DNA of 64,000 bases from the NCBI GenBank assembly GCA_964590995.1, contig CAZPYY010000001.1:762-64761 (forward strand), given 5' to 3'. Both the position numbers and the translations under genes were made by a program. Each line of letters begins with the position of its first letter. Within the stretch, counting starts at the first letter, position 1. Shown here piece after piece: positions 25,452 to 62,700 of this stretch. The notes under the pieces were generated by a model. The model was given only the letters and a program-made list of their open reading frames with translations, was not told the origin of the DNA and did no database searches. Source of the DNA: an uncultured Planctomycetia bacterium (lineage in GTDB: Bacteria > Omnitrophota > Gorgyraeia > Duberdicusellales > 4484-171).

Positions 25452-25480
25452 TGGCAAGATAAAATTTAGCTATCTTGCCA
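25452..25480. other. perfect 10-bp inverted repeat with 9-nt spacer (tggcaagata-aaatttagc-tatcttgcca) overlapping the stop codon of the PilZ gene
   Basis: seen directly; followed on the + strand by a T-rich run (aaattttctttctc); function (terminator or protein-binding palindrome) undetermined. Confidence 0.35.
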
Positions 25481-26432: not shown

Positions 26433-26760
26433 TTAATATTTAGGTATCGACGGTATATGTATCGGTGGTGGAGTATACACTGGCGGCATATCAATATTCA
26501 CAGGGAATTGCGGCTTAAATGGGTCTCTGTAATTAGGTGTCGGCGGTATATACACTGGTGGTGGATTATATACCGGCGGCGTATAATGATTATTCATCAT
26601 CTGCTGATATACCGGATTCGTTTTTATCTCCGGCGGAGGGTTGTAAATTCTGTTTATGTTTGGAAATTGGCGCATAGTGTTAGGGCCACGGTAATTCCTA
26701 ATAGTATCTATTAGCGGTGTTTTTGGTACATTAAACTGTTGTAAATCCCGCTGAAGCTGT
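26433..26760 (-). repeat. coding low-complexity Pro/Tyr-rich tail (PPVY/NPPP repeats) at the C-terminus of the giant protein
   Basis: protein ends ...YTPPVYNPPPVYIPPTPNYRDPFKPQFPVNIDMPPVYTPPPIHIPSIPKY; DNA shows reiterated ggcggtata[tc]ac units. Confidence 0.7.
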
Positions 26761-41700: not shown

Positions 41701-44700
41701 TCTCTCTTGCTTCTGTCGCCTCGGACAAGGATTCCGAATTCATCGCGCCGTAATATTGCGGCGGGGCCTTTGGGGTCAATTAGACAATCAACTGAATTTC
41801 CTGAGATTCTTAATCGATATTTTACCGCAGTAATCTTTTTTACATCATCCACAGGCGAGCTGGAGAAAACTGAGTCATTGTTATACGCGGCAATTAATCC
41901 TCGAATTACATCTACCACATCTTCATCTTCTGAGGCCTTTGGCTCACCAAACAAGTCTACGAATATATCCAGACCAAATTCATCAACTATATCACTAAGA
42001 TTTAACTTAACTATGTCTATGATCTTTTCTCGATAGATATTTAATCCGAGATTGCTTGATTTCAATATATCCCGTAAAGACAAGAGCCGCTGAAGCACTT
42101 CTTTCTTAAAATCCTTCCTTCGTTTACTGAATAATTTTAAGAAAATATCCTCTATCTGATGAGAGGTCCGTTCTTTTCTTAAATAGTTTATGAGTAAACG
42201 TAACCCTGATACACTAGCAATATCGCGGGCAGTATCTAATTCCTTTTGTTTAAGTTCAGGGATCATTCTCCACAATTCCTGCTTCACCTTATTTATTCTG
42301 GTAAGAGCACGGCCGGGAGAGCGGCTAAGTCCATAAACCCATAAGTTGCGAATGCGCTGTTTTATCGAACTTTTATAGTAGTTATAGATTTCATAATCAT
42401 CATCCAATAAACTTAATTCATAATCGCTGAGTGGCCCCCAAAAAGAAGAAACATACCGCTTTTCTGACTTTCTAAACCAAAGGGCGAATTCCTCGTCTAA
42501 GTCGGATTCTAAAGAAGTACACCTGATGACCAAACCGTCTTTGATAATAATCCTTACTCTCTCATTAGGATGCCTGCGAAATCTCGCCCATGACCTTATT
42601 CTTGCTCGCCTTAAGCCATTGACTAAAGGTCTGGCACCGCCCAAACGAAGACTTCCGTTGCTGTCTAAAAAACCGTAGGTAGTAACATCTTTAAGTTTAG
42701 CGAATTTCTCCGGCCTTATTCTCCCCCTATAAACATCGATAACCCTCCCTGTTTTATTATCTATAATAGGGAAAAATTCAAACATTGAACAATCATTCAA
42801 AAAGAATATTCTCATAGGCATCCCATTATAGATTTCCAGCTCATACTCTGTATTGCAATAGCCTTTAAATTGAAACGGGCCCATTTTCTTTCCCAAACTT
42901 ACCCGCGCCCTGCTATTGGTTTTACCCCTTACTACTATATGCCCAAACTGCACTCTCTTTTTGTATCGAAGAGGGAGGTCTTCCTTATTTATATAAACCT
43001 GACCGGTCAATTTACCCTCAAAAGAATGAGCAAGAATCTGACGCCACATACCTTTTCTTATTTTTAGGTCCCTATCAGTCTCTGAGGCGATACCGCCTTT
43101 GCTTTCAGGCCTTAGTTGCTTCTGCATCGCAATTATTGTTTTATTCTCTGGGCCTCGAGCCTTAAAATCATCTACAGTGCAAATAGGACCGTTTCGTAAC
43201 TCATTTACATCCACAGGCGAGCTGGAGGAAACTGTATATCTCAACAACGTATCATAGCTCTGCAGTAACGCTGTTTTTGCCTTTTTTTCTACGTCCCCAT
43301 CCCATGCTCGGCAAGGCCTTAGGCTTTGGGCGATTTCATCGCAATAAAATGGCAATATATCTTGAGCGGATTTCAAGAATAACCCTCCAAAAGTAAATTG
43401 TCTGCCTGGGTCAAAATTCTTTATGCGCTGATTATCAATACCGTAATTGAACGCCTTTAATATATCGATGCTTATAAATCCTTGAGAAAGTATATCTCCG
43501 ATAGCCCCAATGAATTTCATAGCCAGGGGCTTTCTCTCGGCTAAGGGATAAGAGGTTAATTCGCTCTCTAATTCTGCAACTTTCTGCTGAATCACTATAT
43601 CAAAACCGGCTAAGCGTGTTAGTTGTGTATTTACCAAACGGTCTGCATACATACTCTGGGCATTGCGATAACTATTTCTTATTGGTCGGGCCCAATGCTT
43701 CTTTATCGGCTTCACAACGATTTTCTTACCTATATATACACGCGCTGTATGTTTAAACTTAGGATTATACAGGACACCGAATCCCAATTCTCTCATCCAG
43801 TCTGTAACATCTAAAATTGAAGCTTTCGTTGTATCTCTCTGAGTACTACATAGTTGTTTTATTAGTCTCATTTCTTCGCTGAGAAAACATTTTGCTACAG
43901 GCGAGGAGGAAGTTCTTTCCTCAACATCTTCTTTATTCTTATTGCTTTTATAGTCTTCTTTAATTAAATGGTCAAATAAAAGATTCAAGAAAGTCCATGC
44001 GCCCCAACCTAATACAATCTTTACTACGCCCCAATTGAAATTCATTACTATCTTTCCTGCGCCTACCATTAGAAAAGATGCTATTGCGGCAAAAACAGAA
44101 AAGAAACCATTAAATCCAAAAAAATCTTTAATAAAAATCTTTAATGGTACGCTAGCTTGAGTTTTTAACCTATTGCTTCTAGCAGTATCAGCAAGATATA
44201 AAGAAACGGCTATTGCGATGCAGCCTAATATTAAAGAATATCTCAGAATCTCGCCAGACAACACATTTCCCACAGGCGAGCTGGAGTGGACTCGATAAAA
44301 ACTGTTTTTAGGAAACACATAGTTATACATTCCCTGAATTCCGCCACTTAAGCGCTCAGAATATGGGAAACAATTAGGAAAACATTCTGCCATTGTGTCA
44401 GCAGCGTGAGTTGTTTCATCAATTATAAGATAACCTAATGGTTTCAGTAGTTCTTTGGCTTTATCTAGCCATTCTTTCGGCCTGCCAAAAATCCTTCTTC
44501 CACCTACAAAATCAATGAATGTCACAAGGTCGAAACTGTGTGGTTTTAAACCATATTGCTTGATATCAAAAACGCCTATTTCGCTATGGACGAACCTAAT
44601 CTTAAGGTCTAATATTAAGTCCTGTTTCTTTAAACTATTGGAAATAGCTATTGCGTACGCTTCAACGAGCTGAGTTTTGCCCTCATCTACATCTACGAAA

Positions 44701-47700
44701 GTAATATCCTTACCCACTAATGTCAGCAAATGGGGAAAGATCAATAATCCATCTCCGACTACCATAATCTTCTCGATACGAGGCTCCAAGGATGGATCTA
44801 AGATAAGAGAAACTAATTTTTTCGAATAGTATAAATCTTTTTCAAAACCTTCTTGATATTTTTTCATAAAGAATGTATATGCTTCTCCCAGAGTCATATT
44901 CCGTTGCATCGGAGAACTGGAAGAAATAATTCCATTAAGGACTTTGAGCGAGGAATTACTTTGAGCAAACCCGGCATAAGCAGAAAGGCCCCAGTGCCTG
45001 AACAACTCTTTTCGTCCCGGGCATTTATTCTTCACGCCCGCGCAGTCAAGGTCACAATTGAAACATTCAATAGGCTCCTTTGCTATCGGGCCCAACCCCT
45101 CAACAGTCTCATACCTGCGAAGCATAATTCCTTCTTTGGGTTTTATGCCGCGAATAGCTTGACCGTCAGGAAGGATAGAGTACTTAACGAACTTATCGAT
45201 ATCTTCATTCGAAAGTTTGTCACCAGCCTCTATACGGCCTGAAGGGTAAAATAGACCCTTTTCTCCCAACTGCCAAAATCTTCCGCAGTTCTTTATGGAT
45301 TTTTTCTCAAACTCTATTAAATAAAGCATCTTCTTTGACTCAAGGACTTCCAGTATATCCTGGCACAAATTGGTAGGATCACTAATGCGTCTAAATAAAA
45401 ATACTTTATATTTACTGGGAAGTAAATTCTCTTGTGCCAATTTAATAATATGCGCTATATGCTCAGCATATTTCTTAATCCCCAATCTGCGCATCCAGGC
45501 ATTCGGAGCAATGCTCAAAGTCAAGCTTACGACTACACCTCCTCTTTTTAGTGCTTTTATAAAGGCGCGCTCAGCCACAGAGCCGCGCTCAAATCCAGAG
45601 GTATGAACCTCGCCTACAGGAGACAGCTTCAAGATATTACTACTGTCTTTATCATAAACAAAGTCATAGTAGTCTCTGAAATAATCTCCCCTGAAAAGCT
45701 GAACAAAGTTAAAGCGGACACTGCTTTTCCTAAGAATAAACTCTAACTGCTCAAGCCATATCCAGGGAAAAGGGCTTACCCGAATAGTGGTTGCGCCGTC
45801 ACAATGGTCGCACTGGGTAGAACATCCCCAGGTAGCTATGGCAGGGGCTCCTTGGTTTCTGAATGAGAGTTTGTAGTCCTCTTTTCTTCTTCCCTCAAAT
45901 AAAGGAATAAACCAATCAGAGGCAGGCTCTATAAGTGCGTTAAGATTTGCGATTTGGGTTTCGATATCGGCTTTATTATGTTGCTTTTTTATTGATTTTA
46001 TGCGTCCTCTCCCTATTTTTGATAGTGGCACTTGATAATGCTCAATCATCTCTATCCTTGCCTTAATCGCCGCTTTAATAAAAGATAAATAATCAACAAA
46101 TTCCTGGGGATTCTCCTCCCTACGCAGGCCTCTTTGGATAGCAGCATTTGTGGCAGCGGCTTCCTTTATAAACTCCTGATATTCGAATATCTGTTTCTCC
46201 CAATCCAAATATAAATAAGAATAATTACCTCTCTGGCATTGTTTTAGTCTCCATCTTGCCATCTCTTCCAATGGCAAAGATTGTCGTACGGAACGTTTCC
46301 CGCCGTCTTGATCAACTACGCTTGATGAGGATGAAGAATCCTTATTTTTTTTGCGAGCGGGCCTATACCTAAAGGCCATGGATTCGTAAGTCGTATGCGG
46401 CTCTTGCTTCAAGGGCACAGAATCAACATCACTGAGACCAGATAACAAACTCTTGCTTTTGCCTGCTGGTTCTGTCTCTCGGGCAGGAAAATCCCTGTAC
46501 CCAAGTAATGCTAATATCTCACTCATATCATCGGGATGCAGATTCATCGTGCCGTTTGGAATATGCTCAGGAAAACTTACCTCTATCTTGCTGCCGTTCC
46601 TTCTTCTGATATCATCGGCAAAGAAATCAGCCAACAGATTAATAAGCTGCTGACGCGGAGCCTTCAAGTTTCCGTTAAGAGACATAAAATCAAGTTGAAA
46701 ACAATGGGAATGTTTTATGCGTATCCCGCCGCCGGGGATTTCTTCCAATAAAGGGTACATCGCGCGATAGACAACTTCCGTATAGAATTGCGAGATGTTT
46801 TCAATTTCGTCTAAAACGCCGAAAGCGCTTAACTCTTCTCTCTCTCCATCAAGAAGTTTCAGATAGATTTTTGTGCCCTCATTTTCCTTTATCTCTTTGG
46901 CAATATCACAAAGAAGTTCAAAGGGCCTTGTATGAAGGCGCCACTTAGCCTGAAAAATAATGGAGCTATAAACCGGACTGCTGCTTGTCTCTGAAGCAGC
47001 ATGTCCTGAAACAAAGCTATCGTCTAAAGAATATAATAATCCTGCTCCTGACTGCCAAAATGCGTCAAAACCATCAAGGCGCAAATCACAAAAAATGCCG
47101 CGCTTTCTTAGTTGACATAGCAACTCATGCGTTAAATAACCCCGGACAGTCAAAAGAGTACCGGCAGGGCTAATACAATCTGTGATGCGGCCGATAACCT
47201 CCGGTATATCTATCCTATTACTATTGATAATTGATGAATAATTAGTTAATACAAGGTGATTAAATTGTTTATTTTGCGGGAATGATATCTTATCAACAGA
47301 TGCCTGTCTAAAAGTTACCTTACCTCCTGACTCTCTAATCTCTTTTTGGAATATACAGCCAAGCATCATAAGCTCCTGCGATAGCCGTCCATCCTTATCG
47401 CTATCTACCACCGTAACCTGCATACCCATGAGAGCATCAGCCAAAAACAACATATTTCTTCTGTTAGCAAGATGCAGTGAATGATGATTGCATAGATTGT
47501 CTTCCTCTTTTTGAGCCATTATTTCAAAGAGTAATGCTGTTCGTTTGCGGATTATTGCGCGGTATCTACCCTCAATATAAACCGGCTGATCGGCGAGAAT
47601 AACATCTAATATGCTGTCGGCGTAATCATAAGGCTTATAAGAAATAATCGAACTTGATGATAAAACCGGACCTGAAGGCCTGAAGAAATGCCCTGATGTT

Positions 47701-50700
47701 CCGTCTGGCTCAAAGCCTAGCTGCCGGCCATACTCTATCCAGGCATCAAAAGCTCCCCTGGTCTTTCCGCGGTATTGGGGAATTATTAAGATATCATTAT
47801 TTTCACCGAAATTAGCAACAAATTCTGAGAATAAGATCCTACCTAACCGTTTATCACATAATTTCTTATCCCGCTCGATTGTATGAATAAATAGGTATTT
47901 TAAACCGAGCTCTTGTTCTTCATAAGCCAATAATATCGCCAGAGGCTCATAGGGGCTGCCGATATAATAAAGAATAACCGGTTTTCGTAGTAGAAACTTC
48001 CACCTGATGTGCTTCCGGTCATCATCTGTCATGACGAACTTTCTATCTCCGGTTTCTTCCCAGGCCCGCAATACAGCTATAACCTGATTCTTCTTTGTTA
48101 CGGTAACTATCGGTAAATGAGCACCGCTCTCATACAACTTTATCCCTGAAGAAGCGGTGTCTATACCAATCAGCTTTTTAATAAATTCATCAATAAATTC
48201 TTCATATTTTTCTTCGCCCAAATCATATTTTTCTAAAATCTCATGCATTCTTTCTTTCAATGATTCAATACGCCTAAAGTCTTCTGTGGAACCAGATAAG
48301 TCCAAGAATAAATCCCGATATTCTCTCTTTTCCCGATCAGCCAATTGCTCCCAGAGCTCATCAAGTATGGATAATACCTTATTCTTCTTGCCGTCTACGG
48401 AAGGAATATTATTGAATACGTTGATATAGCCTAAAGCGCGCCGCACAATATCATCCATGCCAGCATCTTTGCCTAAGCTATTTTTCGCTGCCTCAAACAT
48501 AATCCCGGCATAAAAATCTCCCTTAAGATGAAGCTTTCCGATAGGCTCAAATTTAAAACCGTACTGCACTTCTATCTCTAACAGAGCCTGTTCGAATATA
48601 CCATTATCTTGTTCAACTGTTATATATTCAGCGGCGGAAGATTTAGCGCTCCTGACCTGCTCTTTACCCAGATTAAACATTTCATACTTGAAGTTAGCTG
48701 CAGTCTCTCCCCAGACGGCTGATAAATCGCTGTTGCGAAATGCATCAAGACCCCAGCGCTTAGTTAACATCAGGGTAAATACGGCTTCGGAGATATATAC
48801 AAAGGCGTCGTCCGCTATCGTTACAATTTTATGTTGTGGTAATATATTGAAAATATATTGCGAAACCAAAGCGGATATTATAGCCGGGTTAAGCCGGCGG
48901 CTGAGGAATAAAACAACCAAGCCCCCTCGGTCACTTAAAACGCCTAATAGTTCTCCGGCTAAAGAAGACAAAACCAGGTCTCTTCTGTCAAAATCATCTA
49001 AAACGCTGCCTAAGGTATAAGGTTTAACTATAATTTGACTTGCCAGTAGTTCTCTTTCGTTTACTGATAGGTTTTTTCCAAAAACGTCAAGTACAAACAC
49101 AGAATCTTCTAAAATATACGTTTTCTGCTGAGAGCTGAATTCCTTATCTACAGCAAAATAGATACAGTTTAATGTGTAAGAATCAATCTTTTGTTTTCCA
49201 GCAATTTCAGGAAATCTTTCCAGGTCATAAATAATTGCTTCCGCTATCTGCCCGCTATGTAGATATAGTGTATGAAACTCATCCGGTTCAAGATCGCCAG
49301 CGCCAAACAACAATTTACCGAATGAATCAATGAATTCTTCGAGGTTAAAAGATACACGCTTAGTTGCTGTCTCAATATCGATATTTCCGTTAATAATTAA
49401 GCCTTTGCTGTTTCGGTAGTCATTACCACCTTTGATGGACGACGAAGATTGGCAATGGTTTTCGTCTTTCTTCTTGAAAGTGATATTTCGTGACCTGGTC
49501 TCTCCGGCTATATTCTTATAAATAACTCTGAAAATCTGCTTGGGGAGATTCATAATCTCTTCATGAAGAATACGATAACGCTCGGTATTTTCATAAATCA
49601 TTATATGTCTCTTAAATTCATCATTATCCTTAAACAATTCAAGATAATGTTTTTGAGTCTCACCGTAGCGCTTCTTAAACCAGTTCGCCAGATGCCTTTT
49701 GCCGCCTTTTCCGTCCGGCATCCAGTGTTTTGGCCTGCCTAAATCATCAGTAGTCAATACGTGGAGCTCATTTTTACTCCTGGCGCATTTCATTAAGTAT
49801 TTACCTTCCCGGGTATTATCACCGGCATATTCGATTTCGATTCTATTTTTTGTTATAAAAAGCATAATTCCAAAGATATCCTGGATGAATTGGGCAATAT
49901 CTTCTCTTAACTTATGAGGGACACATTGCCTAAAATAATACTGTTTAGGGGTAAAAGTTATAAGGTGAAGTAAGTATCGCTTTGCGCCGCGAATATCATT
50001 GTCGCTAATGAATTGATTGACTGTCAGGGATCTTTGGAGGGCTCCTAAGCTGTCATAATCAGGCCTAAACTCAAGGAGGGCTTCCACAAATTCAATCACT
50101 TGGGGATAAGGAAGCTGAAGTTTAATCTTCACCAGTAGCGGAGGCACTCTCACTCTACGGATATAGTAAATATCATGGTATTTAATGATTTTCTCGGTCA
50201 ATTTTAATTTCTTATTCTTAAGCAACCATTCTCCAAACCCACTATCAGCATCAAGCATAGCATAATCTCTGCTGCTAAGAGTAACTCTTGGTTTCTTGGG
50301 TGAAATCTTCCTTCTGTGATCATCTAACTTTTTAGCGGCAATACGCTCAATGCTGCCCCGTTGACCCTTTAGGGTATTGAGCCTCTCACCCAAGGCTTTT
50401 CTAACTGACTGCGATCTTTTAACAACATTTAAATTCCCCTGTTTGAGAAGTTCTTTAATCTCTTTTAATCCGGGAATTACCCTCTTTACCTTTGTGTCAT
50501 CAGTTTGCCTGCCTTGCGCTGTGGTGATAATTATTGACTTGCCAATCTTAGGCCTGGCAATTATACTGTCTATAAGATCTATAACAGCTGATATTTCTTT
50601 ATCAACCTCGCCAAAGAACAATTGTATCTGCTGGCGGGGACGAGACTTTTTTAACTGGCGTATTCTTTCAATGATATCGTCCATGTCCTTTATACATTCA

Positions 50701-53700
50701 ATAATTATACCTATCTCCTCATTTATATCTTCCACTTTATGAAATTCCTGCCTCAACTCATCAGGCAGCAACGCGATATCTTTTTCTTTCAAATCCAATA
50801 AGGCAATAAAGTCTTTATACCTGCTTAGAGAACCGCCTTGATTACTTACCGAAGAAGAAATGGAAGAACTGCTTTCATTATTCTCATTCAATCGCCGTGC
50901 ATTTCCTTTAAGCCTATCAAGATGGTCTTTTGCACCGCCAAGCTCAAGGCCGTAATATTTCCTTAATACTTCCAGCGTTTGCCCCGCATCACGAATAACC
51001 CTTGCCCTATCATCACACTTGTTTAAGGTCATTTCTATGTATGACATGAAATCTCTCTCTATCCTATCTTCCAGCCATGTTTTAAACCTCTGCAATGCCC
51101 CCCGCTGGTATGACCTCTGATCCTTTCTTCCTTCAAAAAACCGGTTGATAGTCACTTCGCTAAAACCAAAAATGGAAGCAAGGACTAAATAACTCACCTC
51201 ATCAAACAATCTCATCTTTACGAACTCAACCATATCACTCTCGGTTAAATTATCGAAGCGAAGCGAGCTGGCGCGCCGCAGAATTACTTCCATTACTTCA
51301 TTTTTTGTGTCTTCTAACTCTCCGCATAAATATCTAAACCCTGAAGTTAAGTAAAACTGAACAACTAAGCTTATCAGCTTATCGTATACCCCGGACTCCT
51401 TAGCGTTACCGGCAAACTCAAGTGCAGCCACGCGCAGCTGCTTGGTAAGATTACTGCGCGACATCCCCAACATATTGGCTATTTCTTGACGGGTATGGTC
51501 AGGATACTTATGTATTGCCTCAATAATTCTCTTTCTTTTCCAGGCATGCTTTGATGTCATATCCCAATTTTTAAGCACTGTTTTTACTAACCTGCGGACA
51601 GGCTGATGATTTGAATCCAGAGCGAATCTCATCATATCTTCAGAGATTTTCCGAGTAAGTTTTGCCCGCAAAGCCTGCTTAAGCGTATCGGGTGCAGCCC
51701 TATAAAGCCGCCTATAGGCCCCTCTGGTTATCTTTGGTTGAGTCCATCTTCCTAAAAGAACCCTTGTTATATAAGAAGGATGGACTTGATGCTGTTTTGC
51801 CAGAACCTCATCAAGCGCTTGCACTGAGATTGCTTTGTTGCGTTGCGCATAGAGAAGAACTTCTGTCTCCCGGTCGTCCAAAACCATATCACGGCGCGCC
51901 TGGCGTATTAAGGCGTCAAGTTCTCGCTCAAGCGCGTTCATTAAGTGCAGGAACCATTTTCTTTGAGGAGACAACCGTGGTGTGTAAGTATTCTTTTCTA
52001 TCGGGGATGAAGCTCCTACAACAGGAAACCCCGCCTGAATAGCAAGAGCTATGTTATTGCTACGGCTTTTCGCTTTAACTGAGTTAATCGAAGAACTGGA
52101 ATGCCTGTCTAAATCTTCTTCTCTCATGCCCATAAGCTGGCAAGCTAGACATATCTGGGCTGATTTTTTTATGTGCTCTCTGGCCTTTGTAAATGCATCT
52201 CCTGCGGCAACAAAGCTTAATCGCTTAACAACAAGCTCAAATGGATAATCATATTCCCACATTGAATAAAACCGTATCATATCTTTTAACGAGGGGAAAT
52301 AATTCCTTTCTTCTAAATCCAGAAATTTAGCTACCAAATTGTCCTCTATCATTACAAACCGTATATCCGAAAGCATAATATCACTCACCACTAGACCTTT
52401 ATATTTACCCAGACTGAAACTCTCCAGCCAAGCCCTGATTAAACTCGTGGCTTCCAAAGACTGTAATCTTATTTCAATATCGGCCTCTTTGACTCCTCTA
52501 TCCCTCAAAATACTCTCCATATCTTCCCTGGTAAATTCCTCGATAACTTCCTCTATATAAACCGCTTTTGCCCTTTCAAAAGAAATATATTCAAAAGGCT
52601 GGGGAACAGGCGAGTACTCCTGAAACCTGTCATAAAAGTGGCTGGCAATCTCAAACCTTTCTTCTACGCCATAACGAATGCCTGTTTCACCGGAAAGTAT
52701 CTTCACAATTACCTCGCCATACTCAGGGTGCCGGGCAAGATATACAGAGGCGTTCTTACCCTGATGACCCGTCATGTGGGATATATCGATACCTTTTTCT
52801 TCTTTCAATTTACCCAATATAATCTTCTCTATTTCCGAAACGTAACCAATGCTGCTGCTTGAGCTGAGACCATGCGAGAAAGTAGCGGTTACCGGCGAAA
52901 GCGCTTTCAGATTAGTCAAAAAATAATAAAGTTTTGGTTCTCCTGCTGAATTAATAACTGAGCTATTTAGCTGCCGTGCTTGAGCCCTATGATGCGTACC
53001 GGTCGCAATTGGGCTGCTGGAGTCAACATTTTTCTTTGCAGCAGCACGCTCTAAAATAATTCTTTTCGCCTCTTCAATAGAATCAGTTACCTGATAAAGC
53101 GATACATCATCAGCATTAACCGCTTTTAAAGGAATCATTACCGCGCGAATCCAATCATCCAACTCACCCCAGAACTCACGCCCTATAAGAATAATTGGCA
53201 CTGGCTTAATCTTGCCAGTTTGGATAAGACAGAGCGTCTCAAAAAGCATATCAAGGGTATCAATACCTCCGGGAAAGAATATTAAACCTAAACTGCTGTG
53301 TCGTTGCATAGCAGTTTTTAACGCAATATGACTCTGAAAACAAAAGCCTCTATCGCCGGGTAGCTGTCTCCTGATATGTTTTCCTTCATACATCGTAATA
53401 AACCACCCCATTTCTAAATTAGCTTTTTGCTCCAAATGCTGATATGCCTTGCCTATTGCTTTCGCTATACTTTCTTCACCGCGACGCATGATTAAAATAC
53501 GTTCATTATTAAGCGAAATAGATAGCTCATGCGCCATCAGCGAGAATTTACTGGTAGTATCAACCAATCTGCCACCAAGAATAGAAACAGCAGGACCTAA
53601 GCGGCTCAATATGCGCGTGGCTCTGAACAACTCGCTGATAAAAACTCTGATATCAATGCCTCGCGGCTCAATCTGTCTGACTCTCAAATATGCGTCAAGA

Positions 53701-56700
53701 TGTTGATAAGCTTCCTTCTCTGTATGTTTAAGATGAACCAGTAATGCTTTTGGCGAAGGCATTAATCCTAACGCATGTGCTCTGTAGAGAAATTGCATAA
53801 ATCGATCATAGAAATCTTCATTAATTAAAACCAGTGGCTTTTGATTTCCAGAATTTCTTAGATTAAACGAAAGAAGCTCACCAATCTCATCCAGGGTACC
53901 AAACCCACCAGGAAAGGCTGACCCACCCAGACTCTTAAAAATAAACATTGCTTTACGTGTGAAAAAATAGTTAAAAATATTCGTTATGTCTTGATATTTA
54001 TTCGATAGTTGTTCATGAGGAAGATTGATACATAAACCAACTGAATTAATAAACTCACGCAAATTCTTATCAACGCTAAGCGCACCTTCGTTTGCTGCGC
54101 GCATAATCCCCGGACCGCCACCAGTAACTACCGAATATCCACCCCGCACTGCTCTCTTACCAAAACGAACAGCTTCTTTATAAAAATGATGGTGGGACTT
54201 GAATCGTGCCGAGCCAAAAGCAAAGAGAGCTGGCCCTAATTCTATGAGCGCACTCTTAGACGCTAGCCATTCATTGATAGTTTGTTCAAAGAATCTCTCT
54301 GAAAGTATGTTGTCGCCTCTTTTATTCCTACTGGATACCGGGCTGCTGGCCTTGTTCTGATTCAACAAGAACATTGAACTGGAAGATTTCTTTTTCCTTC
54401 TTGAACTCTTTTTCTTCTTTTGTGATTTCGCGGAAACAAGATCATGCGTTAATACACGGGAAATATCAATTTCGTTTTTATCGACTCCTTTGGCTTTAAC
54501 TGACCCGCGTATGACACCGTAATGAATAATCTTAATCACTTTTGCGAATGCTCTCTCAAAAGAATAAGAAAAATCCTCTGGCTCTACGGTAAACGCCGCT
54601 GCCAGCATCTTTGCCAGGAACAAGTTACTGTCTTTTATCTCGACAGTAGTCATTACCCTTAATATCTGCTTTAATCTCATTAAAGCAAATTCATTAGTAG
54701 AAAATACTCTTACAACTTCATCTTTTATCCTATCAACATACAATCTTCCTATTTGGCTATCATCTAAACTATCAAGATATTCGTCAAAACCAAGAAGGTA
54801 ATGCCCTAAATGATAAGGAGGTTGATCAGGATACCTTTTACGTACATCTTCCTTTAGAAATTTAATTATTTCTTCTCGTGGTAAGCCTTGAGCTAGCAAT
54901 TCAATAAGCTGGTTAAACGAAGACAAGAAAGCTCCACCGTCGTTTTCATCTTGTAACTTGCCCGCAAACGGGCTGCTGGAATGGTTAAAATAATTATTGC
55001 AACACCTGAGAGCATCATTAAAAATTTCCGCGATGATGTGGTGGGAAAAGTGTTCTCTGCCTATTCTTATATTATGCTCTATTATTCTCTTTCTAAAATC
55101 GGCATCATCAATTATCCTCACCATAAGCATGATAGCTTTCTTTGAAACTGTATCAGTATGAGAGAAAAATGATTTTCTATCAATCAGCGGCAGTTTAATT
55201 ACCTCATCTTCATCAATTTCCATGGTTTCTATAGCCCATAACCCTTTCGCACGTATATCAATTACCCACACCGGGTGAGGATAAACAACAAATGGCCTCT
55301 GATAATAAGCAGCCTCTATCTTAGCATTGCAAAAACCCTCTTGATACGATGGTATTATTATAAGGTCAGCTGCTTCATGTACCTCCCGCAGGCTAAAAGG
55401 TCCAAAGGTTCCCTCAACAGACATTACAAGATTGACCCTCTTCTCTTTGGCAAAACGCTCTAACAGTAACATATAACCTATACCTTCGTCTGTCGCCGGA
55501 TGGGTAATAATGAGGTGCATTCGCCGGTGCGGATATTGCTGCTGCAATTGAGCGGCAATCTCAATGGCCAGTTCTAAATTCTTGCGCCTAATAATTCTAA
55601 GCGGCGCGATCAACAATATGTCATCGGGATGAATATTATGAAATGCCCTGAATGCCTCTCCTGACCTTCTGTTCATGTGCGGTAAATTCTCGAAATCCCT
55701 TGCGTTAGGAGCTATGGCTACCCGCGTATCATATTTATTAAACATCGTTAACTCCTGATACGAATTAATAACTACCGTATAGAGGTCTTCGATCCCGCCA
55801 TAACTTCTACCACCCGCGATCTTATTCAGCCGCCCTGTGACCTTCTCGTTATCGGTCTCGTATTGCTCACGTTCCCACCAGTAATCATGATTGTGGGTAA
55901 TGGTAAAAATAGTCTTATCTTTCATTTCATGTTTTAATTCATTCATAATCTCAACCACCGCGAGCGACAATGCAATATTTACCGGAAGCGACAACACATT
56001 CTCCGGAATGACAAAATCTATGTCATTAGATATAATGAATTTCTTCAATCTTGACTTTATACAATCTTTTAAAAGATGGAATTTATCGATTACCTCATCA
56101 AGTTCCTGATTGAGCTTTCTCTGTTCAGTTTCTTCCTCAATGCTAAGGCCTTCTCTTTTCTGTTTCTCCTCAAGCTTATCTAACTGCTTAGCCAGACTGA
56201 ACAATTGTCCTGTTAATTCTTCAATCTCTTTATTCTTAAAATGGCAGAGAGAATCAACACTCATCCCATCAGCAATATCACTAACGCCGTCAACCTCACC
56301 GGCATAGAAATATACCTCTGCCCCACCCTTCTTGCACACCTTTGCCCACTCTATTAATTCATAGGTAACGCCGTCGCGCGCTTTCTTGCTTATGCGAAAC
56401 GATAAAAACAAAAATCTTTTACCGGCAGCCAGGCTCCTAAGTTGTTTAAATATTTCGCCTTTTTTACCTAATAACTCAAGAGTTGAAATAGCCTTATCAG
56501 CGTTAGTTTGCGGCTCTTCTATAGCCGAACTGCTGGATTCTTCACCATTGTGCTCTCTTATTAATGTTGTTGCAATCGGGCTGCTGGAATCTTTGTCCGG
56601 GCTAGGTAATGTCTTTAATCTCTGCTCTATATCCTCTAATTGTTCATCTAGCCAAAGATGAAAATTATACGAATTAGTGAATTCATCAATAAAATCAAAT

Positions 56701-59700
56701 GCCTTGATAATCAACTCTTTTATTAACTCCAATCTATTCTCATCGGCATCGTTTAAAGTAATATTAAAGAAAGGCTTACTTATGGGCATTTTTGTTTCTT
56801 TTGCTATTAATGCTGAATGCAAATCTTGTAACTTCTTGCCGTCTTCCAAGATCTTATGTTTCTCGCCCGTTAATCTAAATCTACCTTTTGGAAAATCCCG
56901 GAAGGCAAGGATGATCGGCCAAGTTTTTAAGTCTAATTTAAATAAGTCTTTTAACCAAACAACAAGATCAACAATACAAGCAGTTGACCTAATATGGATT
57001 CCCCGATGATCCTGTAGTTGGACTACAAAAGTGATGGAAGTCTTCTTAATTGACGAGCTACAGAGAGTAAAAAGGGACCTGGCCCCTTTTATGTTATTTC
57101 TTAATGACTCTTTAAATAATCCTCTAGTCCACTGTAAGGTATCTTGATCGTTAATTTGTACTGGACTTGCGCAATGTTTCTCATCAATAGTAGTTATATC
57201 CACAGGCAAGCTGACGCGAAGGGATGCTGGATCTATGCGTATGCCTCTGGGCCCTTTTCCTTTATGGACCGCGGCTGCAAAGTATGCGCCTCGGACCTTA
57301 ATCAAATACACAGTGCCAGAGTCACCGCCGACAGGTTTGGCCCCTAACGCCACTATTATATCTTTTTTTATAAAAACCGTATATCCGCTAGATACCGTAT
57401 CGTTATAGCCGCTCACCAGAGTAATAAACAGTCCTTCGTCTAACTCGGATGCTATGGGAACCGGCAGAAGAGCTCCTCCGCGTACTGCTTTTTTCTCAAT
57501 TACAAGCATGGCCAGGTCAACATTTGGATCTCGCCAGATTACCCCTGCCTTACCTATCAATTCATCAGTGTTAGTTCTAAGTATAACCTTATCTCTTTCT
57601 TTAACCACATGGGCACAAGTTAAAAGGATGTAGGCATCTTTTGTCTGTTTCCATACAAAGGCGCTCCCTAAACGGGCAATCTTAACAATCCTTCGAGAAA
57701 ATGCTCCTTTTTCTCTATCCTGGGCAACCTTTTTTTCTAGATTTTGCCTTGCTAATTCTGTCTCAGGAGCTGCTAAAGCTAAAGCTATTTCTTTCACATC
57801 GTCTCGGGGGGTGATTGTTCTTAAGATAAAGTCGATATAATACCTTTTTTCTCTTCTTTGTTCAACGGTTGCCGTAAGGGATTTCAGAGCTAAAGCTATT
57901 TCTTTCACATCATCGCGGGGGGCAATTGTTCTTAAGATAAAGTGCATAGAATAACCTTTGATTGCCCGGATAAGTAAGTCCAATTCCTCAGCTGCATCAG
58001 CTATTCTTTCAGCTGTTGCTTTGAGATCAAGGTTATCTTCAGCAACAATTGCTTTAAGCATAAAACCGACGCAGTAAGCTGGTATTCCTCTTTGGGCCAA
58101 GGTGTTAGTGCAAAAGTTAAGAGCTAAAGCTACTTCTTGAGTGTCATTTCGAGCAGCGATTGCCTTCTGAATAAAGTTAATAGTATGCTTGTCTATTCCT
58201 GTTTGCCATAAGGTAAGTTCAAATTGTCTATTCTCTGCTAAAACAGGTGAAGAGGCAAGCCATCCATTTTGAATATTTTTGTGCAAACTTATCTCTTTGA
58301 ACCTCTGGCCTAACTCAGGCAGGGTGATATCCAGCTCGCCCCGGATAAGTTTGAATGCCTGTTCATATTGTCTGGCGACTCGAATAATACTTATTTTGTC
58401 ATGGCTTATTTCATAGGCAGCCTGCATCATTTCCAGCCACTTAGTGTTATTGTTTTCTTTATGGGCATAATACAGCTTAGCTGCTTCTTGCAGATACTTT
58501 CCGAGAAGTTCCTGGGATTTGCTGAAATAAAAATCGACAATCTTCCTTTTTTCTTCGTATTCGTCTCCTAATTCAAAATGGTGCACGATTTGTTCAAAAG
58601 TATAATCTGTACCGGCAAAAACATCCATCAACCAGCCATTCACCCCATGTTCAATGTATTCAGCCGCACAGCCAGTTTTTGTGGCGATATTTAAGTGGCC
58701 ATTAACGGCTGCTCTTCCATCAGACGTTCCGCCAGCCTCACGGGTTGAGCGCGGCATGCTATTCCATACATCGCAGGCCTGGGTAGCGACTTTCATAATC
58801 TCAGTTCCCGAACCATCGACAAAGATAAATTTGCCTTTCATATCCTCTCTATCAGCCATTATCTTAAACCAGTCTACCCAATCCTTGCCGGCTGCATCGC
58901 GACCCACTCCGCCCATGAAGAAATTCCCCGCCAGGCCATAAGAATCACCCCATGGAGTCGGATACAATTTATCTCTCTCGCCTACAACCCAGGGAAGAAG
59001 GTCAAACAATATGCGCTGCTCTTTATACTCAACAAACCTGCGCACCAGACCAAACAAAGGCCTATCTTGATATTCGAATCCATAACCCTTTGTTGCCTCT
59101 ATGGTCTTGTTAAGCTGCGTTTTCATAGAACAACCTATCTCGTAAAGCACCTTCCCTGTAATTTGCTCTCCAGCTAACTCAAGTTCAAGAAGCTTTTGGC
59201 CCTTCCACTGCTCCGGACAAGAGCCGTTGGTGATCGCTATAACCTTATCAGTATTATCAGGCACAATGATCAGCTTGGTAGTCTCAGCATGCTCTTGTGA
59301 TACAGCATTGATAACTTTGACTCTTGAGTTTTCTGCCAGCCGCCTGGTCAAATTCACTCTACCGTCTCTTACTATATCTTCCGGAACCAAGTCAGGGCCG
59401 ATATTTTCTCTCAACCACCAGGCATCAGAATAAATCCCTAGCGCGGCAGTTTCCGGAGTATGAGTTGTGAAAAGGACTTGCGTATTCGCAAAGATGCTTT
59501 GCTCGCCCTTTTCTCTAAACTGGTCATTATCGAAATATCTAATATCATTCATCATTGCCTGAAGCAGAAAGAAAGTCTGAGCTTCGTTGCAACGTAAGAT
59601 GTCCGGAGCAATCCCAATTTGCTTAAAAAACTCAACATACGCCCGTCCTAAGAAAGCCATTTGTCGCACCTTTCCCGGCTCTCTAGGATAAAGCCCATAG

Positions 59701-62700
59701 AAGATTTCCGGCTGGCGCACCTGTAACACCGGAATATTTTGCACTAATGCTATATACATCCGGGCATTGTAATCAAAACCCCTAAAATTAACATTAAATC
59801 GGAACGCCTCTTTCCCTGTTTCCTTAGAACCTAACGGCCTTAGGCCTTCAATATTATTCCAATCAATCCCTATATAGCGCTTGCCATCATCATGCTTATC
59901 CACATAGTGCTCATACAACGGCATAAACCCGACAGCTCGCAGGCCAATAAGGCCAAATCCTATAAAGGTTTCACCTGAGAGAAAACCCAAGCCACCAGAA
60001 GCCTGCGCCTGTTGGGCAGTTTGGTCTTTGACCACATCTAAAAATGCCTCCATCGTCGCATCAAGGACAAACGGCCCCTGCCTTAAATATTGCTTCAAGC
60101 CTTCAATATCAGTTATCGGGCTGCTGGATTGCTTACCCAAAATATGCTGATCATTTTCCCAATCTTTAAGTATTCCCTTTAATGGTTGTGGATAATGTGT
60201 ACAATCTATATCAAGCCCGAGCATCTGGCCATAGATAAGGGTAAATTTAAAGGCCGCGGTACGCACATCGACAACTGGCAGCATGCGGGTAGCATTATAC
60301 ATAATATCCAGCACTCCCTCGGGACATTGCTGCATATATTTCATAACCAGCTCAGCCCAGGGCCTGTTAGGAAACCTATCATGGTCTTCTAAGTCTTTTG
60401 TAGTCACGCTCTTATCCAAATGATAGTGGTAGGCATAAATACGTGCCGAGGCATCTTCAAGACATGCCTGAAGATATCTGGGCGAAAAAGACTCAAATAG
60501 ATAGCCATTTCCTGTCAGAGGGTCGTAAAACTTTTTCCCGGTTTTCTCCTCCCATACCGGTATCCATACGTTTAGAATCTGCTGAGGGGGAGCGCCGGTA
60601 TAGCTGGAAACAAGAATTGCCGCGGTTATCATAAATTTTTTATCGGCCATACCTGCGGCTTCGCGCGGCGGTATAGACCATTGGGCTGCTACGCTGGTTG
60701 CGCGAATAGCCGGAATCGAAACAGGAACATTCCAGGGGCCAAATAAGAATTTCCCTTTAAGTTTTCGCGAGTATGCTGTCATCTGATAACTCCATGTCAG
60801 ACCTAACGTATCATCCTGGTGGGCCTTGCCCGCCATATATACGTTAAATCCAAGACCACCACCAAAGCTACTTTCGCTCTTCTGAGGATTTTCGCAAACA
60901 TAGTCTAATCCACTTAAGGTGGTATGTTTGAAACTCCTGCCGGGCATCAGGGTAATAAATTTAATCCACTTATAATCACAGATGCGCCGGGCCTGAATAA
61001 GTAAAGGCCTGATTTTCTCAAAAACAACGCCCCACCAGTCTTTAAGCAGTCTGATAAAGCGCTCGGCCGCCCTTTGTTTCGCCTCCCATAATTCATATTT
61101 GTCTAGTCTCTTCTGTCCCATAGACTCTAATTGTTCGGGAAGCATCCAGAAAAACGGCCAAATAGAGTCTTCGATATAGAAATACTTTTCTTTAAATCGG
61201 CCGAAACGTACCTCGTCAGCCGCCATCACCTCTTCGTGTTCAACCCCCACTGTGCCAATACATCGTGCTTGCTCACTTATGAAGTACCAGGGATCATATC
61301 TTCCGCTCTGCTGGGTTATTTCCCCGAGTATCTGCCCATCCCACCCCGTTGTATTCATTACCATAGCCGTATCACTAAATACCGGAAAGGCGGCAAGTTG
61401 CACTGTATGACAAAACGCCATAATACTTTCTTTTGTCCTCTGCAGAACACTGATATCTTTAAACTCATGATGATAGAAGATGTCAGGAACACCGGTTGCG
61501 GCAAAGGCCTCGTGCACCTGTAAAATATCAAGCTCAATTCCTAGCGCCTCAAAGGTCTTGAATGTTGCTCGGCTATAATAAATTGCCTGGGCCAACCGGG
61601 ATTCGCTGTCAGGATATTGCGGATACAATTCTCCAGCAACGTCATCAGTTAGATGAATCAAGAGTACAACCGCATCGCCGGGTGAGCCTTTCACCTTTAA
61701 GCGCCATGCCTCAACTTTGGTTTTTATCCTTTTGTTGTATAGAGGAAATTCTACTTCTATTGCCTGATCAAGGCTATAGCTCTCGATATCATCAGAATGA
61801 AGCAGGTCATCCCAATCTAAAACAACATTGTTAAGCTCAGGGGTCTTAACTGGATTTGTCCACGAAATGACCTCTTTCATGCCGCCTAGATCACCTTTAT
61901 CGCAAGAACGATTAATAACTTCGGCCAAAACCGCAAAATCTTCTTGGTTATCCCCTGTTTCTTCTTCAACGATAAGCACCTTTCGCCCCGATTCAAGCGG
62001 AAGCAGGGACTGCATATCCCCGCTATTCAAAATAACCACCTGGGTTACGTAATTAAGGGCCTGGGAAATATCGTCATCAGGATGTAAGCCTTCGGAAATT
62101 ACCAGTTTCTTTCCTGACATTGAATCAGGAACTAAATAGCCGTCAATCAATCCTCGAATATTATGCGCCAATTCATCAGAGCTAATATGCTCTTCAACTT
62201 CATAAAGACGAAATACCGCATGCTTCATTGACTGCTGTACGCCTCGGAGGTATTTAGGTACAGAAAAGAAGTATGTCCCTCCGTTGGCAGGTAATCCCCG
62301 CATAAATCCTCCGTTTAAAATACCTAAACCTCCGCCCATTGCCCCTTCAAGGCCATACTGAGACATAGTTGCCTCTGCGCACATCACCCCAATCTTTTTA
62401 TTTTGTAATTCCTGGGCAACAGGATAAACAAAAGGCTGGTCAGAGATATTCCGCGGTTTAATCTTTTTCTTCACTTTATATATTCTTCTCTGAAGCGTCA
62501 GCTGTTTATCTCCCTTTCTGATTATTAGTTCAACCTCTATATTCTCCCGGCCAAAACGCGGGTCCAAATGATAAGAATAAATACGCATATTAGCATCTCT
62601 TACCTCCACTTCTGCTCTATCATTTAAGTCTACCTCAAAGCTTAATTGGCCATCAGTCTTAAACTGCAAGTAAAAATTCAGTCCTTCTCTAGCTTTTATC

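What the first reader, a model, noticed from the sequence alone, without database searches (positions are those of the whole stretch)
50880..52010. Sigma-70 region-4-like HTH pair in a GC-richer patch of the giant ORF
Two helix-turn-helix units resembling sigma-factor region 4 (L.DRE.EVLL...ISVQALDEVLAKQ and TRQEIANMLGMSRSNLTKQLRVAALEF) lie in ~1 kb whose GC content (about 45-50% locally, e.g. 51,840-51,960) is well above the ~35% background. A DNA-binding or regulatory fold within a membrane-threaded megaprotein is odd. The compositional anomaly suggests this module was acquired horizontally and then captured between SSSP junctions.
Basis: partly seen in the sequence, partly recalled or inferred. 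Interest (0 to 1): 0.55.

Follow-up and report, generated by a model that had tools for sequence, protein, structure and literature searches.

The report
Triple helix-turn-helix cassette in giant protein
The flagged stretch encodes a real, strongly basic domain made of three helix-turn-helix units, probably nucleic-acid-binding. It is a native, conserved cassette of the giant multi-enzyme proteins of Omnitrophota-like bacteria, not a GC-rich foreign insert.

Summary
The two quoted peptides are in the sequence, at aa 4037-4066 and 4166-4192 of a minus-strand ORF of at least 12,518 aa. They belong to a discrete 380-aa cassette (window 50871-52010) bounded by Ser-Ser-Pro junctions.

An exhaustive HMMER search found a small family of this cassette. 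Members sit in other SSP-jointed giant proteins and in stand-alone proteins of Omnitrophota MAGs. With that alignment AlphaFold gives pLDDT 92: an all-alpha domain with three related tri-helical HTH units, two of them followed by a beta-hairpin.

- **Sequence matches:** the middle unit passes Pfam HTH_24. Sigma70_r4 is below threshold, and no sigma region 2 is present.
- **Structure matches:** the only confident local matches are ECF sigma region 4 and phage HTH proteins. There is no global match.
- **Charge:** the cassette is basic (pI 9.8) in the window and in nearly all relatives.

The composition claim fails. GC is 44.1% against a gene mean of 40.7% (z = 1.4), not 35%. Codon usage is typical of the gene, and no outside donor lineage is visible.

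Best reading: a lineage-specific, probably nucleic-acid-binding triple-HTH cassette. Its cellular side and its target are unresolved.

The parts
26433..63989 (-). Giant ORF of at least 12,518 aa. The frame stays open to the window end, so the N-terminus is missing. It is built from about 30 cassettes joined by SSSP[VI] or SSSSI junctions.
   Evidence: Pfam finds Glyco_transf_5, Trypsin_2, Glycos_transf_1, Lysine_decarbox, methyltransferases and HEAT repeats.
50871..52010 (-). The triple-HTH cassette, aa 3994-4373 (380 aa). pI 9.8, net charge +18.
   Evidence: Family of 18 homologues, alignment A1, AF2 pLDDT 92.4, charge. It is the only copy in the window.
52002..52103 (-). N-terminal junction, aa 3963-3996: HSSSSI - NSVKAKSRSNNIALAIQAGFPVVG - ASSP. 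This reads as a tail-like SSSSI, a 24-aa signal-peptide-like spacer, then the SSP leader motif.
   Evidence: Compared with the termini of stand-alone relatives. The first 9 cassette residues have pLDDT below 50.
51891..51968 (-). N-terminal helical hairpin carrying the conserved (E/D/Q)RKW(L/F) motif, aa 4008-4033.
51696..51875 (-). HTH unit 1 (three helices plus a beta-hairpin and a following helix), aa 4039-4098. Conserved pattern: E..VL.YA...K.VS...LD..LA....V.R.L.GR......GAY..L.
   Evidence: Secondary structure, alignment A4, hhalign to units 2 and 3, weak HTH_31 hit.
51396..51545 (-). HTH unit 2, aa 4149-4198. The only unit that reaches a Pfam gathering score (HTH_24, winged helix type).
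   Evidence: PDB profile hits are to the MarR/AdcR class only, E about 0.01-0.04.
51102..51242 (-). HTH unit 3 (three helices plus a beta-hairpin), aa 4250-4296. It holds the nearly invariant RFFEGR...GA motif (RFFEGR = 51126-51143).
   Evidence: The same unit in homologue P0007 reaches Pfam HTH_3, 23.4 bits against 23.
50883..51098 (-). C-terminal long helix plus helical hairpin ending in the conserved (K/R)xYG(L/I/F)x(L/F) motif, aa 4298-4369.
50844..50876 (-). C-terminal junction ESSSSISSSVS, aa 4372-4382.

Best explanation
Window 50871-52010 (minus strand) encodes one self-contained cassette of a giant multi-enzyme protein of the kind described in Omnitrophota.

What it is: an all-alpha, strongly basic 380-aa domain. 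It is built from three related tri-helical helix-turn-helix units joined by helical linkers. Units 1 and 3 carry a beta-hairpin 'wing'.

Origin: it is native to this protein family and was not acquired from another lineage. The same cassette, delimited by the same Ser-Ser-Pro junctions, recurs next to different neighbour cassettes in other giant proteins. It also occurs as the N-terminal domain of stand-alone proteins.

How it most likely works (inferred, not shown): it binds nucleic acid, most plausibly double-stranded DNA, with up to three reading heads. That would give the giant protein, or a fragment released at the SSP junctions, a regulatory or tethering function.

Shown: the fold class, family conservation, conserved basic charge, and native composition. 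Inferred: DNA binding, release by cleavage, and the compartment where it acts.
For: - **Family:** 20 proteins at E <= 1e-3 among 1.84e9 representatives. Eighteen of them cover the cassette or one end of it, which is more than a single HTH.
- **Structure:** AF2 with this alignment gives pLDDT 92.4 and three helix-turn-helix units. The single-sequence model gave only pLDDT 43.
- **Pfam, query:** unit 2 passes HTH_24.
- **Pfam, family:** across the 19 family members, 17 of the 19 Pfam families hit at E <= 0.01 are named HTH or DNA-binding domains; the exceptions are MRP-L20 and CtsR_C, one member each.
- **Internal relatedness:** hhalign relates the units to each other.
- **Charge:** pI 9.8-9.9. 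The SSP-delimited segment holding the cassette has the highest pI of the segments longer than 100 aa (9.89; only a 79-aa segment is higher). The 17 longer homologous regions have pI 8.8-10.2; one 111-aa fragment has pI 6.9. Net positive charge is concentrated on the three HTH units: means +2.6, +3.9 and +2.5, against +0.4 and +0.8 for the linkers.
- **Native origin:** GC z = 1.4 and typical codon usage.
- **Cassette boundaries:** homologues sit between SSP junctions in P0001, P0002, P0009, P0017, P0020, L001 and L002.
- **Variable neighbours:** in L002 a GGDEF cassette lies upstream and a Kdo-transferase-like cassette downstream. In the window the neighbouring cassettes have no Pfam match.
Against: - There is no experimental evidence.
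- Units 1 and 3 of the query reach no Pfam or PDB sequence threshold on their own.
- The near-invariance of RFFEGR...GA across the family is unusual for a specificity-determining recognition region. It could instead mark a conserved protein partner.
- Stand-alone homologues begin with signal-peptide- or anchor-like segments. That would place the cassette outside the cytoplasm, away from the cell's own DNA.
- pTM is only 0.60, so the mutual arrangement of the three units is uncertain.
Confidence: 0.55

Rival explanations
1. HTH-shaped protein-interaction or scaffold module. The three units keep the HTH fold but serve as a docking platform for other cassettes or partners, or bind another polyanion such as cell-wall polymers, possibly outside the cytoplasm.
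For: - The invariant RFFEGR/GA and V.R.L.G/G.Y motifs sit at the ends of the would-be recognition helices.
- Stand-alone homologues and their cluster neighbours carry signal-peptide-like N-termini.
- The literature predicts that most giant-protein domains are extracytoplasmic (10.1101/2023.11.21.568195, section 7; 10.64898/2026.06.07.730766, section 9).
Against: - The conserved high positive charge, concentrated on the HTH units, is typical of nucleic-acid binders.
- In L001/L002 the cassette follows a GGDEF cassette with no transmembrane helix in between. That argues for the cytoplasmic side.
- The Pfam matches of family members are almost all to DNA-binding HTH families.
Confidence: 0.25
2. 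A degenerate sigma-factor-derived module that contacts RNA polymerase and promoter DNA, or an anti-sigma partner.
For: - The best local Foldseek matches are to ECF sigma region 4 bound to its anti-sigma (3hug, prob up to 0.97), with further sigma factors in the lists.
- Sigma70_r4 and r4_2 give sub-threshold hits in the query and in two family members each.
- Units 1 and 3 show the L..RE..VL.L...S...IA...G.S..T pattern typical of sigma4 and LuxR-type HTH. This last point rests on my own knowledge of those families.
Against: - Sigma70_r4 scores 19.6-19.8 bits against a cutoff of 24.1. Sigma70_r4_2 scores 13.4 against 25.7.
- No Sigma70_r2 or r3 hit was listed in the cassette (E up to 10) or elsewhere in the ORF at the cut-offs used.
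- Foldseek E-values are about 1, over 70-84 columns only.
- Sigma-like stretches that I thought I saw by eye in the C-termini of stand-alone homologues gave no Pfam hit at all.
- Three tandem units with hairpins are not the sigma architecture.
Confidence: 0.1
3. A horizontally acquired foreign DNA-binding module captured between junctions.
For: GC is slightly above the gene mean: 44.1% against 40.7%, with GC3 at 44% against 38%.
Against: - The deviation is z = 1.4. Other parts of the gene are richer.
- Codon usage is among the most typical 8% of same-size segments.
- No homologue of the cassette as a whole was found outside giant-protein-type contexts. The only other hits, P0010 and P0019, match unit 2 alone.
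- Relatives with 34-55% GC carry the cassette at their own genome composition.
Confidence: 0.03

Closest known systems
Region 4 of sigma-70-family (ECF) sigma factors (Pfam PF04545/PF08281; e.g. M. tuberculosis SigL sigma4 in PDB 3hug)
   Same: A compact helical HTH unit of about 70 aa. It gives the best local Foldseek matches: prob 0.89-0.97, TM 0.62-0.68 normalised to the target. There are weak Pfam hits.
   Different: Below family thresholds. No sigma region 2 or 3. Three tandem units rather than one, two of them with an added beta-hairpin. Embedded in a giant ORF.
Winged-helix HTH of the AsnC/Lrp and MarR type (Pfam HTH_24 PF13412, MarR PF01047)
   Same: Unit 2 passes the HTH_24 gathering score (23.6-23.8 against 21.9). 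PDB profile hits are to AdcR, MarR, OhrR and Lrp-type proteins.
   Different: No AsnC-type ligand-binding domain and no MarR dimerisation helices. MarR itself is below threshold (22.9-23.1 against 24.6). E-values against PDB are only 0.01-0.3.
Multi-HTH DNA-binding arrays on one chain (paired-type or Tc1/IS630 transposase N-terminal bipartite HTH, Myb repeats)
   Same: Several HTH units are strung on one polypeptide. HTH_23, HTH_28 and HTH_Tnp_4 hits occur in some family members.
   Different: No DDE or other catalytic transposase domain is adjacent. The linkers are long helices. The resemblance in principle rests on general knowledge and was not tested.
Omnitrophota giant proteins: 'Archaeovorin' type (West-Roberts et al. 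2023, bioRxiv 10.1101/2023.11.21.568195) and 'multi-enzyme metabolic cluster' class (Nielsen & Lui 2026, bioRxiv 10.64898/2026.06.07.730766)
   Same: The host ORF matches on length (over 10 kaa) and on domain content: starch-synthase-like, GT1, methyltransferases and HEAT repeats, with few transmembrane helices.
   Different: Text searches of these papers, and of Seymour et al. 2023, found no mention of HTH, DNA-binding or transcription domains, nor of linker, junction or polyprotein. West-Roberts et al. state that information about cleavage points is lacking.
Membrane-tethered or precursor-embedded transcription regulators released by proteolysis (e.g. regulated intramembrane proteolysis of anti-sigma/sigma pairs; ToxR/CadC-type tethered regulators)
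   Same: A functional analogy only: a DNA-binding domain that is part of a larger membrane-associated precursor. A Trypsin_2-like cassette exists in the same ORF.
   Different: No homology. No evidence of cleavage. The nearest predicted transmembrane segment is more than 2,200 aa away.

Membership tests
Sigma-70 family, region 4 (PF04545 / PF08281) | Score at or above the Pfam gathering threshold | tested here: not met
   Sigma70_r4 scores 19.6-19.8 bits against 24.1. Sigma70_r4_2 scores 13.4 against 25.7.
Sigma-70 family, region 4 (PF04545 / PF08281) | Accompanied by sigma region 2 (PF04542) on the same protein | tested here: not met
   No Sigma70_r2 or r3 hit was listed for the cassette (E up to 10) or for the rest of the ORF (E up to 0.01 for aa 1-10000, up to 10 for aa 10001-12518).
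Sigma-70 family, region 4 (PF04545 / PF08281) | Sigma4-like three-dimensional fold | tested here: inconclusive
   Local Foldseek matches to 3hug have prob 0.89-0.97 and TM(target) 0.62-0.68, but E = 1.4-2.3 over 70-84 columns. The query range is not reported.
Sigma-70 family, region 4 (PF04545 / PF08281) | Binds the -35 promoter element and the RNA polymerase beta-flap | not testable with these tools
   Needs biochemistry.
HTH_24 winged helix (PF13412; AsnC/Lrp-type N-terminal HTH) | Score at or above the Pfam gathering threshold | tested here: met
   23.6-23.8 bits against 21.9, at aa 4152-4186. In the 5,000-aa scan the score was 18.6.
AsnC/Lrp regulators as a whole | C-terminal AsnC-type ligand-binding domain after the HTH | tested here: not met
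   No such Pfam hit in the cassette at E up to 10.
MarR family (PF01047) | Score at or above the Pfam gathering threshold | tested here: not met
   22.9-23.1 bits against 24.6.
Xre/Cro-type HTH (PF01381 HTH_3, PF13560 HTH_31) | Score at or above the Pfam gathering threshold | tested here: not met
   In the query HTH_31 scores 20.3-20.6 bits against 27, on unit 1. Only homologue P0007 reaches HTH_3, 23.4 bits against 23, on unit 3.
Tc1/IS630-type transposase DNA-binding domain | Paired HTH followed by a DDE catalytic domain | tested here: not met
   HTH_23 scores 13.8 bits against 24.6 in the query. The flanking cassettes have no transposase or DDE hit at E up to 1.
Omnitrophota giant multi-enzyme protein (host ORF) | ORF of at least 10,000 aa tiled with many different enzyme domains (starch-synthase-like, GT1, methyltransferases, HEAT) | tested here: met
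   At least 12,518 aa. PF08323, PF00534, several methyltransferase families, PF03641, PF13365 and PF13646 are present.
Omnitrophota giant multi-enzyme protein (host ORF) | Genome belongs to phylum Omnitrophota | tested here: inconclusive
   The window itself was not placed taxonomically. Of three genome loci with the cassette, two are Omnitrophota MAGs and one is a MAG labelled Planctomycetia.
New 'triple-HTH cassette' family (alignment A1) | Full-length match to the family profile, including the ERKW, E..VLLYA, KYL.G.L and RFFEGR...GA motifs | tested here: met
   hmmsearch of the A1 profile against the six-frame translation gives 388.9 bits, profile positions 2-341, aa 4003-4345.

The most novel reading that the evidence does not exclude
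The cassette may be one cargo unit of a bacterial polyprotein or secretion system.

- **Junctions:** the SSSSI and SSSP[VI] junctions of the giant ORF reproduce the C-terminal '[SA]-I-stop' tail and the 'signal-peptide + L[SA]P' leader. All stand-alone relatives and their cluster neighbours examined carry these termini.
- **Processing:** the giant protein would be cut at these junctions.
- **Destination:** the released basic triple-HTH protein would be exported, like its leader-bearing stand-alone homologues, and would act on nucleic acid of the prey or host cell of an epibiotic or predatory Omnitrophota bacterium.
Probability: 0.12. Interest if true: 0.8.

Novelty: new variant of a known kind. 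Interest (0 to 1): 0.42.

Why it matters
Giant ORFs of Omnitrophota are currently read as surface, adhesion or cell-wall-degrading proteins, or as fused metabolic enzymes. Their functions are largely unknown, and no cleavage points are known.

A conserved, basic, three-HTH cassette would add a nucleic-acid-binding or regulatory component to that picture. It would also define a domain family absent from Pfam, NCBIfam and the PDB.

The same analysis gave a concrete, testable junction grammar: SSSSI/SSSPV matches the tail and leader of stand-alone homologues. That could tell experimenters where to look for processing sites. It also offers a way to split these proteins into units for structure prediction.

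The specific claim of a GC-rich, horizontally acquired sigma-like insert is not supported. It should not be carried forward.

Tried and rejected
- **Word-indexed protein searches:** the cassette and the A1 profile found nothing. P0006 found only itself. The family became visible only with the exhaustive HMMER search.
- **Single-sequence AlphaFold:** uninformative, pLDDT 43.
- **Alignment A1 for locus finding:** too diverse for the search for related loci, so a 7-sequence subset A2 was used. It gave 3 genome loci and 1 metagenome locus.
- **AFDB50 fold library:** not available.
- **PDB sequence-profile searches:** the whole cassette and units 1 and 3 gave nothing below E = 0.01.
- **NCBIfam:** no hit.
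- **Sigma-like stretches seen by eye:** I thought I saw sigma region 2- and 4-like stretches in the C-terminal parts of stand-alone homologues P0003, P0005 and P0007. Pfam found nothing there even at E up to 10, so I dropped the idea.
- **Transposase reading:** rejected, because no DDE domain lies in the neighbouring cassettes.
- **RNA element or alternative ORF:** rejected. Rfam has no hit in the window. Only short antisense ORFs of 65-121 aa overlap the region.
- **Taxonomic placement of the window:** not achieved. The exact LysRS neighbour is on 23 public contigs, but these carry no taxon label.
Full report
**Context.**
The window holds 26 ordinary bacterial genes on the minus strand. They include MetRS, CysRS, RadA, a ClpB/ClpA-family chaperone ATPase, LysRS, LolCE and Opp permeases. 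It also holds one minus-strand ORF, 26433-63989, of 12,518 aa. The frame is still open at the window's right edge, so the protein is longer. Pfam finds many unrelated domains along it: starch-synthase/phosphorylase-like, Trypsin_2, GT1, tandem LOG/Lysine_decarbox, several SAM methyltransferases and a long HEAT-repeat tail. Only a few hydrophobic segments are predicted, and none lies in aa 1-6580. This is the architecture described for Omnitrophota giant proteins. West-Roberts et al. 2023 (bioRxiv 10.1101/2023.11.21.568195) call it the 'Archaeovorin' type. Nielsen & Lui 2026 (bioRxiv 10.64898/2026.06.07.730766) call it the 'multi-enzyme metabolic cluster' class. Seymour et al. 2023 (PMC10066038) also describe giant ORFs in the phylum.

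**Checking the observation.**
- The flagged 50880-52010 corresponds to aa 3994-4370. Both quoted peptides are there.
- The cassette is delimited by ASSP at aa 3993 and SSSSISSSV at aa 4373.
- The composition claim does not hold. GC is 44.1% against a gene mean of 40.7% and a window mean of 40.0%, not 35%.
- Against all same-length windows of the gene, that is z = 1.37 (89.5th percentile). GC3 gives z = 1.3.
- The 120-nt peak at 51840-51960 (52%) is equalled or exceeded by 74 of 3,744 windows.
- A codon-usage distance to the gene average puts the cassette at the 8th percentile. It is more typical than 92% of same-size segments.

**Is it an HTH?**
- By sequence, aa 4152-4186 passes Pfam HTH_24 (23.6-23.8 bits, cutoff 21.9). 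MarR, HTH_Crp_2 and Sigma70_r4 are sub-threshold there. aa 4061-4097 gives only a weak HTH_31 hit. NCBIfam has nothing.
- The word-indexed protein search found no relatives. The exhaustive HMMER search of 1.84 billion representatives found 20 proteins at E <= 1e-3. Two of them, P0010 and P0019, are HTH-repeat proteins that match unit 2 only. The other 18 cover the cassette or one end of it.
- With the resulting 19-sequence alignment A1, AlphaFold confidence rose from pLDDT 43 (single sequence) to 92.4, with pTM 0.60.
- The model is all-alpha. It has three tri-helical units at cassette residues 46-86, 156-205 and 257-293. The first and third are each followed by a two-stranded hairpin. Helical linkers lie between the units, and a helical hairpin sits at each end.
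- Profile-profile comparison of the sliced units gives prob 90% (unit 1 vs 3, 44 columns) and 92% (unit 1 vs 2, 42 columns). Unit 3 carries the most conserved motif of the family, RFFEGR...GA. F291, F292, G294 and G304 are at least 90% conserved in A1 and invariant in the sub-alignment A3.

**What kind of HTH?**
- The only high-probability Foldseek matches are local, over 70-90 columns. They are to sigma region 4 of an ECF sigma factor (3hug, prob 0.89-0.97), to a phage 'RNA polymerase sigma factor' and to phage HTH proteins.
- When all 19 family members are scanned against Pfam, 17 of the 19 families hit at E <= 0.01 are HTH or DNA-binding types. They include HTH_23, HTH_24, HTH_31, HTH_3, HTH_28, Sigma70_r4/r4_2 and AsnC-type. 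None is hit in more than three members. The two exceptions are MRP-L20 and CtsR_C, with one member each.
- So 'sigma region-4-like' is a fair description of the local shape. Membership in the sigma family fails, because the scores are below threshold and no region 2 is present.
- PDB profile searches with units 1 and 3 alone were not significant.

**Evidence bearing on function.**
- The cassette is basic: pI 9.8 and net +18. The SSP-delimited segment that holds it has pI 9.89, the highest among segments longer than 100 aa. Only a 79-aa segment is higher.
- This property is conserved. The 17 longer homologous regions have pI 8.8-10.2. One 111-aa fragment has pI 6.9.
- The mean net charge sits on the three HTH units (+2.6, +3.9, +2.5) rather than on the linkers (+0.4, +0.8).
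- This fits nucleic-acid binding, which I take as the most likely activity. It is an inference.

**Native or foreign?**
- The relatives are of two kinds. The first kind is fragments of other giant ORFs in which the cassette again sits between SSP junctions: P0001, P0002, P0009, P0015, P0017, P0020, L001 and L002.
- In those, the neighbouring cassettes differ. In L002 a transmembrane helix plus GGDEF lies upstream (PF00990, 135.7 bits). A transmembrane anchor plus a Kdo-transferase-like domain lies downstream (PF04413, 104 bits). In P0020 a glycosyltransferase-like stretch lies upstream, judged by eye only. In the window the cassettes on both sides have no Pfam match.
- The second kind is stand-alone proteins of 700-1,300 aa with the cassette near the N-terminus: P0003, P0005-P0008, P0014, L003 and L007.
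- The named genome sources are two Omnitrophota MAGs and one MAG labelled Planctomycetia.
- The stand-alone genes lie in clusters with a methyltransferase and a GNAT (L003), a GH116 hydrolase (L007), or a 3,538-aa unknown protein, a HEAT-repeat protein and a GT2 (L008). These are largely the domain types that the giants carry as cassettes.
- No donor lineage outside this group is visible. Together with the composition results, this rejects the horizontal-acquisition reading.

**Unresolved: which side of the membrane?**
- In L001/L002 the cassette follows GGDEF with no intervening transmembrane helix. That argues for the cytoplasm.
- Yet every stand-alone homologue, and each of its cluster neighbours examined, begins with a signal-peptide- or anchor-like segment followed by L[SA]P (8 of 8). 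Nearly all complete ones end in [SA]-I-stop.
- None of the 27 ORFs of the window ends that way.
- Enzymes that need SAM, acetyl-CoA or UDP-sugars carry the same leader, which is odd for exported proteins.
- I could not run a signal-peptide or topology predictor, and the N-terminus of the window's giant protein is outside the window.

**By-product: the junction grammar.**
- In the giant ORF, SSSP occurs 24 times against 0.17 expected. It is followed by V or I in 18 of 24 cases.
- Sixteen of 24 use the codons TCC AGC (TCG|AGC), against 0.7% expected from the gene's serine codon usage. Relatives with 55% GC use SSP[AV] with varied codons.
- A second junction type, SSSSI, occurs six times.
- At aa 10225 the two types are in tandem: SSSSISSSPV.
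- At the N-boundary of the HTH cassette they are separated by a 24-aa stretch that looks like a decayed signal peptide: HSSSSI-NSVKAKSRSNNIALAIQAGFPVVG-ASSPI.
- So the junction looks like the '..SSI' tail of one unit fused to the 'LSPV' leader of the next.
- Either the giants arose by in-frame fusion of neighbouring genes, or the junctions are processing sites that regenerate those termini. A Trypsin_2-like cassette is present at aa 2108-2224 (25.0 bits, just under the 27.6 cut-off).
- Text searches of the three Omnitrophota papers turned up nothing on linker or junction motifs. West-Roberts et al. state that information on cleavage points is lacking.

**Verdict.**
The HTH observation is real and under-counted: there are three units. 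The sigma-family label, the GC anomaly and the horizontal-transfer story are not supported. The object is a lineage-specific, conserved, basic triple-HTH cassette with no counterpart found in Pfam, NCBIfam or the PDB sequences searched. It most likely binds nucleic acid. Where it does so, and on what, remains open.

Noticed in passing
window 26433-63989 (minus strand); e.g. 33288-33317 (aa 10225-10234, SSSSISSSPV) and 52002-52103 (aa 3963-3996): The cassette junctions SSSP[VI] (24 observed, 0.17 expected) and SSSSI (6 observed) mirror the termini of stand-alone relatives. Those relatives start with a signal-peptide-like segment followed by L[SA]P (8 of 8 cluster proteins in L003, L007 and L008). 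They end in [SA]-I-stop (8 of 8 complete cluster genes, plus P0003, P0005 and P0014). None of the window's 27 ORFs ends that way. This suggests either gene fusion or processing sites. It was not found in the giant-gene papers searched.
   Followed up: partly
window, the 24 SSSP sites of the giant ORF: The junctions are conserved at the nucleotide level. Sixteen of 24 read TCC AGC (TCG|AGC) CCN, against 0.7% expected from the gene's serine codon usage. The AGC-AGC form clusters in the N-terminal third and the AGC-TCG form in the C-terminal two thirds. Relatives with 55% GC use varied codons. The cause (gene conversion, recent cassette shuffling, or an mRNA-level signal) is unexplained.
   Followed up: partly
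window 63987-64000: The giant ORF has no in-frame stop between its listed TTG start (63989) and the window edge. The true N-terminus, and any signal peptide, lie outside the window, so the protein is longer than 12,518 aa.
   Followed up: yes
window 25073-25375 and 25466-25873 (minus strand): Two small PilZ-domain genes (PF07238, 37.6 and 63.4 bits) and a 171-aa membrane protein (25902-26417) lie immediately downstream of the giant gene. In relatives L001 and L002 a GGDEF diguanylate-cyclase cassette sits directly N-terminal to the HTH cassette. This is a possible link to c-di-GMP signalling.
   Followed up: partly
window 57318-57668 (aa 2108-2224, minus strand): A Trypsin_2-like serine-protease cassette lies inside the giant ORF (25.0 bits, just under the 27.6 cutoff). 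It is a candidate for self-processing at the junctions.
   Followed up: no
L002 5669-9091 (and the equivalent part of L001): The order here is TM helix + GGDEF, then the HTH cassette, then TM anchor + Kdo-transferase-like domain. A single transmembrane helix between two cytoplasm-dependent domains is topologically inconsistent, unless the cassettes are separated before membrane insertion.
   Followed up: partly
window 26436-30749 (aa about 11081-12518, minus strand): The C-terminal 1,400 aa starts with a lipoprotein-signal-like segment (KAIIILLLLSLVFHSGC). It continues with 11 or more HEAT_2 repeats (249 bits). It ends in a hydrolase-like region (judged by eye) and a proline-rich PPVY-repeat tail.
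   Followed up: no
P0004 (aa 138-456 and 996-1299); P0013, P0015, P0018: One relative carries two copies of the cassette. In a sub-family (P0004, P0013, P0015, P0018) the cassette is always followed by the same conserved unknown domain of about 250 aa (...LPES.Y.A.MTHAL...). This is a possible functional partner, and it is absent from the window.
   Followed up: no
stand-alone homologues P0006, P0008, L003 (C-terminal halves): After the cassette these proteins contain several repeats that end in a motif like (Y/F)G..(I/V)Y..LFPE. This resembles the (K/R)xYG(L/I/F)x(L/F) motif that closes the cassette itself. No Pfam match was found.
   Followed up: no
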